A DNA stretch of 64,000 nt from Perna viridis (taxonomy: Eukaryota), in assembly GCA_037379345.1 (NCBI GenBank), contig CM074525.1:1497170-1561169 (forward strand), given 5' to 3'. Of this stretch, positions 18,001-61,600 are shown in pieces. A program made the position numbers. Each line of letters begins with the position of its first letter. The stretch's first letter is position 1.

Positions 18001-21000
18001 TTGTGTACTTTCGGAAAAAGTAACATAAATAAAAACACACATTTTAAAGATGAAATGAAGGTTGTTTATCACATATGCATACCATGAACGTAGTATAGGC
18101 TCTGAAACACTGGCTCCAAAATTGTTAAAATTCAGGATTTTCCCTCTGGGCTTTGCCTTGCCGGACTCACAAGGGGCCTTGAGCGACCCCCCCCCCAAGA
18201 CCCCTCGCTGTAATTTTGCGAACAACTAAAAAGGCCTAGCTACGCCCCTGGATTTTACATCATTGTCTTATCTTTGTACCTGAATTTATGGAAAAATATT
18301 CCTATTTTTTCTGCGAAAGAGATTGTCATGATAAATCTCCCTATTAGAAAAGATGAAACGAGGAAGAACTCTCTCATTGAGCATTGAAAAGGTTAACAGG
18401 TGTGGAGGGGTCCAGACCTTGGTCCACCACTAATTTGAACGCCTGTTTACTTTTCATTTGGTGTTAAAATTTACACTGTTAGATGAATCGAATGTAATTT
18501 ATCATCTGATGGACATGTAAAATTTATAAGCTCTTTTTTTTCAAATTAGTCTTGTGTGTGGTCTTCAATGTCTAGCATTATGTAAAAATAGAAAATTTAA
18601 CTTCTTTGTTGCATTCATGCAATACACAATGGTAGGTTACATCCACAAGATACCTAACTGCTGCACATCAAAGGGAGACAACTCTTTCCCAGGGGAAGTA
18701 ACTCTGTAGTCCGTAAATAGGAATAAATAATGACAAAGTAAATGTAAAAACAATTATATAGATTGATATTCCCTGTCTTCTAGGTCAGTCTCCCTCTTTG
18801 AGAAAGTCTCCCATGAGGGAGACATGAATCTCCCTCTTTCACAAATTATAAAGATAGTTAAATGTCAAAATTAAACAAAGACAAAAAAAAAAGAAAAGAA
18901 AAGAAATAACACAATGAATTAGTTTGGTTTGCCCTTTTTCACAAGATAGTTAAATGTCTATTTCGATTCTCTACAACAGGTGACAGTTTTTTATTTGTGA
19001 TTGAGCAGATTGAAGTTTGTATGACATGATCAAATTGAAACTCTTTGAATTGTTTAAGTGAAAATGGAATTTTTTATTTATATTTCTTAAGCAAGAAAGC
19101 TAAAGGCTTCACAGAGTCTCATTTGTATGCAAGTGTCAGAGATGTTCTTGAGAAAAAAAAATTTGCATGTTTGTTGCTTTGTGGAGATAGAAAAAATAGA
19201 TGGAAAAACACAACTTGGATTTTGATATGATTTTTTAGAAAATTCTTGATTCACATCTAAAAGACTTTAGTGTAGGAATTTTATCTTTCTGTAATGGAAG
19301 CATCACTGGAATAATTTGTTGTGCAATTTGTGGGAGTAATTTCCCCTAGTTGATTAAATTGAGTGAATTATCTCCCTTTGACATTTTTTGTGTATTTTCA
19401 TCAGCGGCAGATTCATTGTTTGGTATCATCGATGATGTTAAAAGGATTCAAGATTTTCTGATTTAAATGATTCTCCGATATCCCAGGTCATCTCCAGAAT
19501 TCTCTGATATCCCAGGCCATCTCCGGAATTCTCTGATAATTTGAAGCACGGAAAATATTATAAACTTGAGTGCCACTTAATTTCTGTTTTTTTTCTTCAA
19601 TTTCTAAAAATAACTTAATGACCAAATGTAGGAAGCAGACTATTATTCTGTTAGAAAGTTGAATAGTAGAAATTTACTGCAGAAACAAAATAATGATTGT
19701 GATTCAATCTGGAAACTTAATAATCATCCTGTTTGGTTAGCCATCGTGAAGTGTAATTACTGGAATGAAAATTCAAATTTGACGTGAAAATTACGAATAA
19801 TTGCACAAATTTACGTAACAGTTGATTGTAAATCTATTGATTTTTAGAGGGAAAATTCCTAAATCATCTTGTAACTAGTTGCTATTTTGAATTTTATCAG
19901 TTTTTTTTTTTTATTTAAAGTTCAAAACTCTCAAAGTTTGAGTTTATGTCAAAACTTTCACTTGAGAGTAACAATACAAAAAATTCAAAGTTTTCTTAGT
20001 TTTTAAATTCAACTCAATTTTTTTTTTAAACTTTCATGTTAATTTATAAAGTTTTTAATTGGTTAGATTAAGAAAAATTGAAAAATAATTTTATTACAGA
20101 AATCATTTTAAAATATAGCTTCCCTTAGTCTATATTTTTAAGTCAAAAAAGTATTTTTTTTGATAACGTTTTTTATTTATAGATCATCACAGAATATAGC
20201 AACAAATCAGCCTGGCAGTAAATTTTTACTAAATTCGAAATTAGCTACTTTTTTGTGACAATTAATTGTAACTAAATTCAACTAACACAGAGAATCATTA
20301 GGAAAGATGATATAACATGGCATTTACAAAGATGTCCACTGAACAGTGAATAAATTTCTGATAGTACATAAAAGCTTGTGGATGTAACTTAAAAACTGTT
20401 TATGCATCAAGACACACTTTACGGAAGTCTCCGTCTCCAGCATGTAAGGTATACCAATCTGTAGCACTTTCTTTTGGACTGCAATATCAGTGATAAATAG
20501 GAATATTCTATGGCTATGAATTATAGTTGAATTTCAACCATATGGATTACAATTGTGTAGTAAACCTAGATATTTAAGAAGGAACAAGAGATGAATATTA
20601 ATTTGTTTTTAATGTGGTAAATTGCGAATTTGAATCAACAATTTTTAAGAGATATAACCAATAATTTTGCTTTGTAAACTTTCAAGTGAATGAACTAAAA
20701 TAGATAAATTTGTGATGGCATTGATACTAGATCTGGAGAAATAGATAGTATTTAACTATTACCTTTGAACTTTGACACTACAGAATCTGTGTGAGAGGTA
20801 TTAGTGAAAAAACTCAACCAGAAAATACTTGAATTAATGGTGTCACTAAGCTACACCTTGATAAGTTTGATCTTTTACCCCTGACCTTGAGCAATGAAGA
20901 AACTTATTTAAGGATATTTTGTTGGTGGAAGTTGAACACCTATAGCAGAGGAGTCTCATTTTTTGTACTACGTGAGAAAACAATTGTTTTGAAACATTGA

Positions 21001-58600: not shown

Positions 58601-61600
58601 TTTACTTCATTATTATCTTAAATAATTTCAATGTCTTTTTTTTTTTATTTTACAGGGCAGAACAGGTAAAGGTAAGTTATGATCAAGACAAATAAAATTC
58701 AGACACTGCCATTGGTAGAGGGAAACAAGGTGCTAAAAAACCCATAAAACAAACAATGCTTTTTTCTGTTTTAATACACTATATTTTTATGTATGGGTAG
58801 TTTGCACAATAACATATCTATATAATATTTACCTTGTAACAATGAAATGAAAAAACTAAAATTGGTTTTCTGGCGCTTCTGAATCAGAAATAATAGTGAA
58901 TTTTATGGGTTTCTTTTTACATGTATCACCTCCTGCCTGAAGACTCCTTAAGTTAATTTTCATACATAGCTCTGAAAGAAGGGGCACTCTGTTATTCCCA
59001 TTTTGGTCTGTCTGTCTGTCTGTCAAATCAATTTTATTTTTTTGTCCATCTGAACAGAAATTGGAATGATCAGACATCATCTGAACAGCAAGTAGAATGA
59101 TCAGTTATTTCCCTTTAATGATGAAATTGCAATGCATTTCATATAATCAAACTTCTTAAATACTGACTTTCAGGAAAGAAATGAATGCCAATGAAAGACT
59201 TGTGTGTTTTTATCTATTATGATTCACCCATTGCCTGATTCTTACAAAGAATAACACTTTAGGGTATAAAACAATTATTCCATCTCATGTTTCCTCACTT
59301 ATAATTTCCTTCAAAACAATAAAGTACAAGTGACTGTAAGAGTCATGTAGATTTTGTGCATGATTTTTTATGATTTCTTTTTAATTTGTGAGATACTTGT
59401 CATGATTTCTGTTGGATTTGTTAGAACCAGGAAATCAAGAATTCTATGAACTATTACTTCTGTGGATGAAGGTCAACTCAGAAACTTAGAATGTTAAATT
59501 GCTACTTCAGGGGCCATAACTCCATTAAAAGCTGTGCAATTTTTTAAACGTAATTCTTCTAGTGAAGGGTGTTGTCCTAATTGCTATAGTTGTTCATGTA
59601 AATAAGCAAACACTGCAGAAAATTGGTTATGATGTTTTCTTTCTTTTATTGTAAGCCATATTTGTCAACATATGAGAAATTTGTTTCTAGGGTAATCAAG
59701 AGAAAAATTATTATAGCAAAAATTAAAAGAATGCAATCCAGAGACAAAAACCAGACATGGAAAAGAGACACACACAACAAAGAATATAAAATAACTAAAA
59801 TAATACATACAAAGTAACAAAAGTAAATGACCAACTCAGACCTATGCATTGTTTGTGTGTATTCTGATTAAAAGTAATCAAAATAAACCTGAGAATGTGT
59901 ACTTTAAAATCATATATGTAATTTACTACACAAGTGTATGAATATTGTTTACATGTGTGAGTAATTTGCCTCCATGCTGTCAGTTAGCAGAAAAGGTAAA
60001 AATGTTGATTTTCAGTATTTTTTATTCAAGTAAATTTTGTGAAGAATTTCTATGGACATGGTACCATTAGGGTAATGATTTTGAAGGCCTTATTTTCTAA
60101 GCTTTGCAATGGTATGCAACTTTAAGGTGTCGTTTGTCCTGGGAATTCACAGTGAAACATTGAAAATTACTTGTTTAACATGTAAAGTAATGGAAACGTT
60201 AGAAGTGGTTAGTGAGACCTTAGGCTCAAGCTACGAATCATGCATAAATTTGTTAATCTGGTCTTCAGTTTATCCCATATTTGGAGTCAAGTGTTGAATA
60301 AGGGTGCAATTAAAATATCATAAATTTCAGCAAGAAATTTTGGGGACTCTATGGCAATGTACCTTTACATATAGGCACATCCAAAAAGGATGTATTGATT
60401 TCTATGGTTAGTGACCTTTACCTTTGAACTTTGATCTTAGGTCTGATGCTTTTTTTGAAAGAGCAACTCCTCATAAAACTGCTGCAGCATATTTAGAAAA
60501 ACTTTGAAGGTAGTTGGGACATTATGTGTAGTTGTGCATAATACTAATTCACTGAATTTTGTGGGTAGTATACCCCTTTGAACTTTGGAATGGGGGGAGA
60601 CAAATGTTTTGAAGGCAAAAGAAATCTCCATTATGTATTAAATTTTTAATCATCGTCTGCATAATAATTGATTGATACCTGAAAACAACAATTATCTTTG
60701 TCATCTAATTACTGTTAATGTATTAATTTTCATGATGATCTAATTTTCGCGGTGGTCTGAAAAATGTGAAAAAAATTGTACTCAGGAAATTGATTTATAA
60801 CACTGTATAACACTAATCATTTTTTTAAACCACGAAAATTGATACCTGCAAATATGTCCACTTGACAGAATATGCCATTCATCCGTCTATTTATTTTTGG
60901 GGAGGGGAGCAGAGGTTACCAGGTGAGCTTTGCCAACAGTTTTTCTAGTTCCAGCTGAATGAAGTTTGGTGTGTCCTGTACAGTTTCTAGGAAGGAGTTG
61001 GGTTGGTTATCATCTTTACAAACCAATTTGTTGTCTTATTCCCTCATGTTCCTTTTCACTTTCTTCTACCCCAGACATGACATTTTATGATCACCTTGGT
61101 GGGTGTTTTTAGAAAAGCAGAGGATGCTTACCTTACTGGTTGAGCTGGTTTATGCTTTTCGTTTCTGATTCTGCGTTGCTCATCTCCTTTTATTTCTTTA
61201 TATATTATGTTGGTTTTCTTTTACCACCTTGATTATGTTATTCAAGATGACTGACAACAATATTTACTTCCATGTGAAAGGTTTAATCTGACAAATCATA
61301 AAAAATAGTGTGAAAACTGCAGTTTGCAGGAAGAGACTTCAATGTTAACACTAACACAATGTATAATTTAGATTTGGTGGAGACTTCAATGTTAACACTA
61401 ACAAAATGTATAATTTAGATTTGGCAGAGACTTCAATGTTAACACTAACAAAATGTATAATTCAGATTTGGCAGAGACTTCAATGCAAGATGAAGGTGGG
61501 GACCCTAATACAGCACACGTTGAGACACGACAGAGTAAGAAAAATAAATCGAGCCTTGAACCAGTGAGGGAAGGAGAAATTGTAGAATTTACAGACAGTT

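What the first reader, a model, noticed from the sequence alone, without database searches (positions are those of the whole stretch)
20402..59995. Array of candidate alternative first coding exons giving one protein several unrelated N-termini
Seen: unique-sequence ATG-to-donor modules, each preceded by an in-frame stop and each with the phase required by the next constant exon. 21029, 24685 and 39456 (phase 0) would join 43321; 53275 (phase 0) would join 56394 and skip the coiled-coil exon; 59974 (phase 1) would join 61466; a weaker one lies at 20402-20443. I found no convincing internal coding exon between 8 kb and 43 kb. Inference: a multi-promoter variable-first-exon/constant-region architecture (plectin- or UGT1-like) in an unrecognised gene, with nested isoforms with or without the coiled coil. 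Caveat: short ATG..GT modules arise by chance in AT-rich DNA.
Basis: inference. Interest (0 to 1): 0.7.

Follow-up and report, generated by a model that had tools for sequence, protein, structure and literature searches.

The report
One real alternative first exon, not an array
A mussel gene for a long coiled-coil protein has one conserved alternative start exon inside a huge intron, giving a shortened protein with a new 28-residue head; the other proposed start exons have no support, so this is ordinary alternative-promoter biology.

Summary
The window is mussel (Mytilus-like) DNA, not human. Their plain number is what chance gives.

One module is real. 39456-39539 encodes MAVQLVQYMDLRQAIDINPPSYHIIKIQ, 27 of 28 residues identical to the N-terminus of 4 of 11 Mytilus protein models found with a downstream exon.

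The other 7 of 11 models start with about 390 residues that have no match anywhere in the window. The long form's 5' exons therefore lie upstream of the window, across an intron of more than 43 kb.

The constant exons are 43321-43431, 45039-45113, 56394-56471, micro-exon 58656-58671, 61466-61626 and 63463-63516.

The five other modules match 0 of 11 models. The ORFs at 24685 and 53275 found nothing in the large protein set.

One result goes against my reading: codon-biased modules are in excess on the + strand. This is unexplained.

Verdict: a two-N-terminus gene already annotated in related species, not a plectin- or UGT1-like array.

The parts
39456..39539 (+). Alternative first coding exon (84 nt, phase 0): MAVQLVQYMDLRQAIDINPPSYHIIKIQ. 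Start context ACCATAATGG, donor CAG|GTAAGC.
   Evidence: 27 of 28 residues identical to residues 1-28 of P0001, P0002, P0003 and P0011. In-frame TGA 9 nt upstream. Strongest donor score of the confirmed exons.
43321..43431 (+). Coiled-coil exon (111 nt, phase 0 to 0, no ATG in frame). Used by the long form. Joined to the MAVQL exon in 1 of 4 Mytilus models.
   Evidence: tblastn gives 25 of 33 identical to the Mytilus models. Acceptor and donor read.
45039..45113 (+). Constant exon (75 nt, phase 0 to 0): AASADTRTSEFIEGEDDPSRLSSQQ.
   Evidence: tblastn, sequence. It follows the MAVQL exon directly in P0002, P0003 and P0011.
46642..46662 (+). Candidate cassette micro-exon WRRKRGK (21 nt).
   Evidence: The best-fitting of the 7 intervals printed out of 168 stop-free AG..GT intervals in 45120-56390 (those basic-rich or starting with W). 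It resembles the WRGRKSNR/WRGRKHNR insert of P0007 and P0006. Inferred only.
56394..56471 (+). Constant exon (78 nt, phase 0 to 0): DSRPSTKNSRQSNKGKQLPTKSPKRD.
   Evidence: 93-96% identical over 27 aligned residues. Sequence.
58656..58671 (+). Constant 16-nt micro-exon: GRTGK plus the first base of the next codon (phase 0 to 1).
   Evidence: The only one of 163 stop-free AG..GT intervals of length 1 mod 3 in 56480-61440 that fits the Mytilus GKSGK-D. Acceptor ttttttattttacag, donor gtaagt.
61466..61626 (+). Constant exon (161 nt, enters in phase 1). Its acceptor and first 20 nt lie in a 47-nt tandem repeat.
   Evidence: 84-86% identical to the Mytilus models. Repeat, sequence.
63463..63516 (+). 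Constant exon: AKQPIDQMHSRYVQYRKL. The gene runs on beyond the window.
   Evidence: tblastn gives 12 of 18 identical. Frame and splice sites.
20402..20443 (+). Unsupported ATG..GT module (14 codons).
   Evidence: Present. Matches 0 of 11 Mytilus models. Too short for the large protein search.
21029..21085 (+). Unsupported ATG..GT module (19 codons), donor AAG|GTCAGT.
   Evidence: Present. Matches 0 of 11 models. No Pfam match for its open frame. Not searched in the large protein set.
24685..24795 (+). Unsupported ATG..GT module (37 codons).
   Evidence: Present. Matches 0 of 11 models. Its 48-aa ORF found no protein at E<=10. No Pfam match.
53275..53322 (+). Unsupported ATG..GT module (16 codons), good donor AAG|GTAAGA.
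   Evidence: Present. Matches 0 of 11 models. Its 44-aa ORF found no protein at E<=10.
59974..59995 (+). Unsupported ATG..GT module (7 codons plus 1 nt), in the intron between micro-exon 58656-58671 and exon 61466.
   Evidence: Present. Weakest donor of the six. Matches 0 of 11 models.

Best explanation
The + strand from about 39.4 kb to the window's end is the middle part of a mussel gene for a long, mostly coiled-coil and disordered protein. Its Mytilus counterparts in this search are 1047-1892 aa.

The gene makes two kinds of N-terminus. The long form starts with about 390 residues encoded upstream of the window and enters at exon 43321 across an intron of more than 43 kb. That intron also holds three B-box (TRIM-like) gene copies.

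The short form starts at an internal first coding exon, 39456-39539. That exon supplies a unique 28-residue head and splices in phase 0 to exon 43321 or exon 45039. The short form thus replaces the N-terminal domain and most or all of the first coiled coil.

Shown: the exon, its frame and its conservation. Inferred: that it has its own promoter, and which acceptor it uses in this species. Speculative: that the conserved PPSY in the head acts as a PPxY-type docking site (the motif's meaning is recalled, not tested).

The other five modules are most likely chance ATG..GT stretches in AT-rich intron.
For: - The peptide of exon 61468-61626 finds 11 Mytilus proteins at E<=0.01 among 13 candidates, at 83-85% identity.
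- These proteins map collinearly on the window at 43333-43431, 45039-45113, 56394-56471, 61466-61626 and 63463-63516. The micro-exon lies at 58656-58671.
- 4 of the 11 proteins (P0001, P0002, P0003, P0011) begin with MAVQLVQYMDLRQAIDINPPSYHIIQIQ. This is 27 of 28 identical to the translation of 39456-39539.
- No other exon in the window is better conserved. Only 56394 comes as close, at 93-96%; the rest are 63-86%.
- The ATG has an in-frame stop 9 nt upstream, and the donor sits at the same codon as in the Mytilus models.
- 7 of the 11 proteins begin with MSMNYVGS and about 390 further residues. The best + strand hit of that region in the window has E=11 over 12 residues.
- Exon 43321 has no in-frame ATG, so it needs an upstream coding exon.
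- Plain module counts are at chance.
- The other five modules match 0 of 11 proteins.
- The ORFs at 24685 and 53275 found nothing at E<=10.
Against: - There are no transcript data, so the splice junctions and the separate promoter are inferred.
- No CpG-rich or otherwise distinctive promoter signal lies at 39456. CpG o/e from -500 to +300 is 0.18, against a window mean of 0.28.
- The Mytilus models are predictions, and three of the four come from genome-project annotation. A predictor can invent a start exon when the true 5' exons are far away.
- With a codon-bias filter of at least 0.2 bits per codon and a donor of at least 4 bits, the + strand keeps 6 unsupported modules: 13916, 18353, 20402, 21029, 24685 and 53275. 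This compares with 1.4 +/- 1.2 in 60 Markov copies (0 of 60 reach 6) and 2 on the minus strand. Some further modules could therefore be real.
- That filter was set after seeing the candidates. The validated exon itself scores only 0.16 when left out of training.
- The protein searches see only cluster representatives, so an isoform differing only in a short head could be hidden.
Confidence: 0.8

Rival explanations
1. One reading: several of the modules (20402, 21029, 24685, 39456, 53275, 59974) are true alternative first exons with their own promoters. This would be a plectin- or UGT1-like array feeding 43321, 56394 and 61466.
For: All modules have the required phase and an upstream in-frame stop. 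Codon-biased modules are in excess on the + strand: 6 against 1.4 +/- 1.2, with 4 of the 6 in phase 0. Donors at 24795 and 53322 are good. Isoforms that differ only in a short head could be hidden inside 90% clusters (one search was unavailable).
Against: The five unsupported modules match 0 of 11 related proteins. The ORFs at 24685 and 53275 found nothing at E<=10. The plain count is at chance. The excess appears only at a threshold chosen afterwards, and the one validated exon would fail it. Four of 6 in phase 0 is not significant (binomial P about 0.10, my arithmetic). 21085 has the rare GTCAGT donor, and 59995 has the weakest donor.
Confidence: 0.08
2. None of the modules is real. The MAVQL head is an artefact of gene prediction repeated in closely related Mytilus genomes, and the true protein has only the long N-terminus.
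For: All 4 models carrying it are computational. They disagree on the acceptor: 1 uses the counterpart of 43321 and 3 use the counterpart of 45039. No promoter-like signal was found.
Against: The window comes from a genome whose neighbouring exons are only 63-86% identical to Mytilus. It still keeps 27 of 28 residues, the ATG and the donor at the same codon. Neutral intron sequence at that distance should not stay open and near-identical over 84 nt (inference).
Confidence: 0.06
3. Exon 39456-39539 is real and coding but is not a first exon. It would be preceded by one or more non-coding 5' exons, or used as a cassette in transcripts from the far-upstream promoter, with translation starting at its ATG.
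For: A usable acceptor (tatatttctcag|TG) lies 74 nt upstream of the ATG at 39381/39382 (read directly). There is no promoter signal at the exon.
Against: Nothing speaks directly against it. The protein-level outcome (a MAVQL-headed short form) would be the same.
Confidence: 0.15

Closest known systems
Mytilus galloprovincialis 'uncharacterized protein LOC143052885 isoform X5' (P0011), with the M. coruscus, M. edulis and M. galloprovincialis models P0001-P0003
   Same: Same 28-residue head (27 of 28 identical), followed by the same order of exons (AASAETRN.., DSRPSTKN.., GKSGK, DLADTS..), all found collinearly in the window.
   Different: The window's exons are only 63-96% identical, so it comes from another species or a diverged copy. 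Which acceptor the head exon uses here is unknown.
Long isoforms of the same Mytilus genes, auto-named 'myosin heavy chain, striated muscle-like', 'myosin-10-like' or 'golgin subfamily A member 4-like' (P0004-P0010)
   Same: They share every constant exon mapped in the window.
   Different: They start with about 390 residues (MSMNYVGS..) that are absent from the window. The names are automatic labels for coiled coil, and no myosin or golgin domain was found by Pfam.
Plectin (PLEC) alternative first exons
   Same: Short isoform-specific N-terminal peptides are encoded by alternative first exons spliced to common exons. The review PMC8468861 speaks of 'a dozen alternative first exons' (passages seen).
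   Different: Here only one in-window first exon is supported, and the other N-terminus is a multi-exon region of about 390 aa. That makes two heads, not a dozen.
UGT1A and clustered-protocadherin variable-exon arrays (recalled, not looked up)
   Same: One promoter per variable first exon, with a shared constant region.
   Different: Those variable exons are large paralogous domains in tandem. Here the modules are short and unrelated, and all but one are unsupported.
Internal-promoter N-terminally truncated isoforms such as TAp63/deltaNp63 (recalled)
   Same: A first exon inside an intron gives a short unique head in place of the N-terminal domain.
   Different: No sequence relation. The promoter is not shown here.

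Membership tests
Variable-first-exon array (plectin- or UGT1-like) | Three or more alternative first coding exons that each splice to a common downstream exon | tested here: not met
   Only 1 of 6 modules has outside support. The other five match 0 of 11 related proteins. Searches were negative.
Variable-first-exon array (plectin- or UGT1-like) | Each first exon is in frame with the common exon | tested here: met
   The phases are as stated for all six. This is necessary but not discriminating, because plain counts are at chance.
Variable-first-exon array (plectin- or UGT1-like) | A separate promoter or transcription start for each first exon | not testable with these tools
   No transcript or 5'-end data are available. 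The CpG profile is uninformative.
Two-promoter gene with a long form and a short form carrying a unique head | An ATG exon inside an intron of the long form, closed upstream, in phase with the next exons | tested here: met
   39456-39539 has a TGA 9 nt upstream and is in phase 0, and both 43321 and 45039 accept phase 0.
Two-promoter gene with a long form and a short form carrying a unique head | The head is conserved in other species and used as an N-terminus there | tested here: met
   27 of 28 identical to the first 28 residues of 4 of 11 Mytilus models.
Two-promoter gene with a long form and a short form carrying a unique head | The long-form 5' exons are present in this genome | not testable with these tools
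   They are not in the window. The sequence upstream of the window is not available.
Orthologue of the Mytilus LOC143052885-type gene | Collinear matches of successive exons | tested here: met
   Six matches in the same order and strand at 63-96% identity, plus the micro-exon.
FAM186A/B (Pfam PF20865, PF20870) | A match to the C-terminal or N-terminal family model at the curated cut-off | tested here: not met
   PF20865 matches only 2 of 11 Mytilus proteins, at 20.6 and 24.5 bits against a cut-off of 37. PF20870 has no match. In the Atlas a FAM186B cluster ranks 17th at score 0.82, which is a lead only.

The most novel reading that the evidence does not exclude
Besides the conserved MAVQL exon, some of the codon-biased, phase-0 modules (24685, 53275, 21029, 20402) could be lineage-specific first exons. 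The >43-kb intron of this mussel gene would then be a nursery of newly born N-termini: a young plectin-like array caught in the making.
Probability: 0.08. Interest if true: 0.4.

Novelty: already known. Interest (0 to 1): 0.15.

Why it matters
The result matters mainly for annotation. It shows that the gene has a short isoform with a conserved 28-residue head, already present in public Mytilus models. It also shows how readily short ATG..GT modules in AT-rich introns can look like an exon array. If the conserved PPSY in the head were a working docking motif, the two isoforms would differ in partners. That idea is untested.

Tried and rejected
- Pfam on the exon peptides, on 21 intronic open frames and on the open frames around 21029, 24685 and 53275 gave nothing usable.
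- Rfam over the whole window gave 0 matches.
- The 37-aa peptide of module 24685 was under the 40-aa minimum. I sent the 48-aa ORF instead, with no hit. The 44-aa ORF at 53275 also gave no hit.
- Modules 20402, 21029 and 59974 (14, 19 and 7 codons) were not sent to the large protein set.
- The CpG profile gave no peak at any module as a promoter mark. The one CpG-rich patch, 45401-46800, reads like a young repeat insertion.
- The codon-bias score did not separate the validated exon from the unsupported modules, so I rejected it as a discriminator.
- Family assignment of the gene: the FAM186 match is below the cut-off, the Atlas gave leads only, and the literature listing for FAM186A/B showed nothing relevant (listing only).
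- No eukaryotic genome collection was on hand, so the orthologous Mytilus DNA could not be aligned.
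Full report
**What the window is.** The window has 64,000 bases and no N. GC is about 33% and CpG observed/expected is 0.28. The peptide of exon 61468-61626 finds 11 proteins at E<=0.01 among 13 candidates, all from Mytilus species, at 83-85% identity. The window is therefore mussel DNA: a relative of those species or a diverged gene copy. I do not take it for human.

**Checking the observation.** Each is an ATG with an in-frame stop 9-60 nt upstream, followed by GT.
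- 20402-20443, 21029-21085, 24685-24795, 39456-39539 and 53275-53322 are in phase 0.
- 59974-59995 is in phase 1.
- blastn of each module with 300 nt either side against the window found no second copy of any module body. The exception is the last 15 nt of 39456-39539, which start a local three-copy repeat.

**Is it more than chance?** I counted every first ATG after a stop that is followed, within its open frame and at least 22 nt on, by a GT with a donor score above a threshold. The region was the + strand of 8000-61465. The donor weights are approximate values that I recalled.
- A first pass without simulations gave 41 modules on the + strand and 14 on the minus strand at 3 bits, and 13 against 5 at 5 bits.
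- At a donor of at least 4 bits, the + strand has 20 modules. First-order Markov copies give 12.8 +/- 4.0 and the minus strand gives 8.
- At a donor of at least 2 bits, the counts are 55 (+), 48.5 +/- 8.0 (Markov) and 34 (minus).
- Five of the 20 overlap confirmed exons. Counting distinct ATGs without those five gives 15, against 16.3 +/- 4.3 in 60 third-order Markov copies; 38 of 60 copies reach 15.
- The plain count is therefore what chance gives.

**A result against my reading.** I added a codon-bias score, trained on the confirmed exons and the two B-box open frames against intron background.
- At 0.2 bits per codon or more and a donor of at least 4 bits, the + strand keeps 6 unsupported modules: 13916, 18353, 20402, 21029, 24685 and 53275.
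- Sixty Markov copies give 1.4 +/- 1.2, and 0 of 60 reach 6. The minus strand has 2.
- Four of the six are in phase 0, which is not significant (binomial P about 0.10, my arithmetic).
- I set the threshold after seeing the candidates.
- The validated exon scores only 0.16 when left out of training, so it would fail the filter. At a threshold of 0.0 the excess disappears: 8 against 5.8 +/- 2.1.
- I record the excess as unexplained and give it little weight.

**What the gene is.** I fetched six of the eleven proteins with get_proteins. All eleven were on the script machine, and their N-termini were read. I mapped four of them (P0001, P0007, P0010, P0011) on the window with tblastn.
- Matches lie collinearly on the + strand at 43333-43431 (25 of 33 identical), 45039-45113 (63% over the 27 aligned residues), 56394-56471 (93-96%), 61466-61626 (84-86%) and 63463-63516 (12 of 18).
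- The Mytilus residues GKSGK between the third and fourth matches correspond to a 16-nt micro-exon at 58656-58671 (GRTGK). It has a long pyrimidine tract and a GTAAGT donor. It is the only fitting interval among 163 stop-free AG..GT intervals of the right length class.
- A cassette seen in P0006 and P0007 (WRGRKHNR, WRGRKSNR) has a candidate counterpart at 46642-46662 (WRRKRGK). This is inferred only.
- The gene runs on past the window's right end.
- Pfam gives no family at its cut-off. FAM186A/B C-terminal appears in 2 of 11 proteins at 20.6-24.5 bits against a cut-off of 37. The Atlas gives leads only.
- The public names (myosin heavy chain-like, golgin A4-like) are automatic labels for coiled coil.

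**The one real module.** Four of the 11 proteins (P0001 from M. coruscus, P0002 and P0011 from M. galloprovincialis, P0003 from M. edulis) begin with MAVQLVQYMDLRQAIDINPPSYHIIQIQ.
- The translation of 39456-39539 differs from this at one residue, so 27 of 28 are identical.
- No other exon in the window is better conserved, and only 56394 comes as close.
- The ATG, the upstream stop and the donor position are all kept.
- Since neighbouring exons have diverged to 63-86%, I infer purifying selection on this frame.
- In P0001 the head is followed by the counterpart of exon 43321. In P0002, P0003 and P0011 it is followed directly by the counterpart of exon 45039. Both joins keep phase 0 in the window.

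**The other N-terminus.** Seven of the 11 proteins begin with MSMNYVGS and about 390 further residues before the counterpart of exon 43321.
- A permissive tblastn of the first 400 residues of three of them found nothing credible. The best + strand hit has E=11 over 12 residues.
- Exon 43321 has no in-frame ATG, so it must receive an upstream exon.
- I conclude that the long form's 5' exons lie beyond the window's left end. The intron before 43321 then exceeds 43 kb.
- That intron contains the MAVQL exon and three + strand B-box gene copies.

**The other five modules.**
- blastp-short of all six peptides against the 11 proteins gave hits only for 39456, in 4 of 11. The other five gave 0 of 11 at E<=10.
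- The 37-aa peptide of 24685 was under the search minimum. Its 48-aa ORF shared words with 6 candidates, and none scored E<=10.
- The 44-aa ORF at 53275 shared words with 3 candidates, and none scored E<=10.
- These searches see cluster representatives only, and the listing of cluster members was switched off. The negatives are therefore weak.
- Modules 20402, 21029 and 59974 were not searched in the large set.
- No CpG signal marks any module, nor the real exon.
- Donor 21085 is GTCAGT, and donor 59995 is the weakest of the six.

**Handling of the spliced model.** I searched exons and open frames one at a time by window reference. I made and searched no joined sequence, so the joined step was left out.

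**Comparison with known systems.** Plectin has 'a dozen alternative first exons' encoding short isoform-specific heads (PMC8468861, passages seen; found through the listing). UGT1A, the protocadherin clusters and TAp63/deltaNp63 are recalled and were not looked up. The locus works like the simplest case: an internal first exon that gives a shortened protein with a unique head. It does not meet the defining feature of an array, which is three or more supported first exons.

**Verdict.** The real feature is one conserved alternative first coding exon in a gene whose short isoform is already in public Mytilus annotation. This is ordinary biology and its interest is low. I give about 0.08 to the reading that further modules are real.

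Noticed in passing
window 33-449, 1873-3138, 5940-7229 (+): Three tandem B-box/coiled-coil (TRIM-like) paralogues. The third is a 429-aa open frame with Pfam zf-B_box at 25.8 bits. The second is 47% identical to it but is broken by a stop after 2454. The first is cut by the window edge. They would lie inside the >43-kb intron of the coiled-coil gene.
   Followed up: partly
window 61332-61485: A 47-nt tandem repeat (3.3 copies) contains the acceptor and first 20 nt of exon 61466. Earlier copies carry TTTAG acceptor-like ends followed by in-frame stops.
   Followed up: partly
window 39525-39624, 39637-39733, 39857-39942: A three-copy repeat of about 110 nt starts in the last 15 nt of the MAVQL exon and includes its donor. 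Copy 2 has lost the GT, and copy 3 keeps CAG|GTAAGC.
   Followed up: partly
window 45401-46800: This is one of only two patches in the window without CpG depletion (o/e 0.9-1.2 against 0.28 overall; the other is 62601-63400, o/e 0.9-1.16). It is rich in GTTCGAG-like motifs and reads like a young repeat insertion rather than a promoter.
   Followed up: partly
window 41165-42256: A large minisatellite built on a 33-nt unit (higher-order periods 91, 182 and 405) between the MAVQL exon and exon 43321. It explains the 43% GC peak.
   Followed up: no
window 39516-39527 (residues 21-24 of the head): The alternative N-terminus carries PPSY, a PPxY-type motif (meaning recalled). It is kept in all four Mytilus models.
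   Followed up: no
window 59689-59841, 57604-57751, 13773-13930 (+); 4486-4616, 36853-37000 (-): Five copies of one interspersed repeat, 78-85% identical, flank module 59974 and other sites. A separate repeat at 60062-60197 matches 8034-8167 on the minus strand at 88%.
   Followed up: no
window 8000-61465 (+): There is an unexplained excess of codon-biased ATG..GT modules on the + strand: 6 against 1.4 +/- 1.2 in Markov copies, and 2 on the minus strand.
   Followed up: partly
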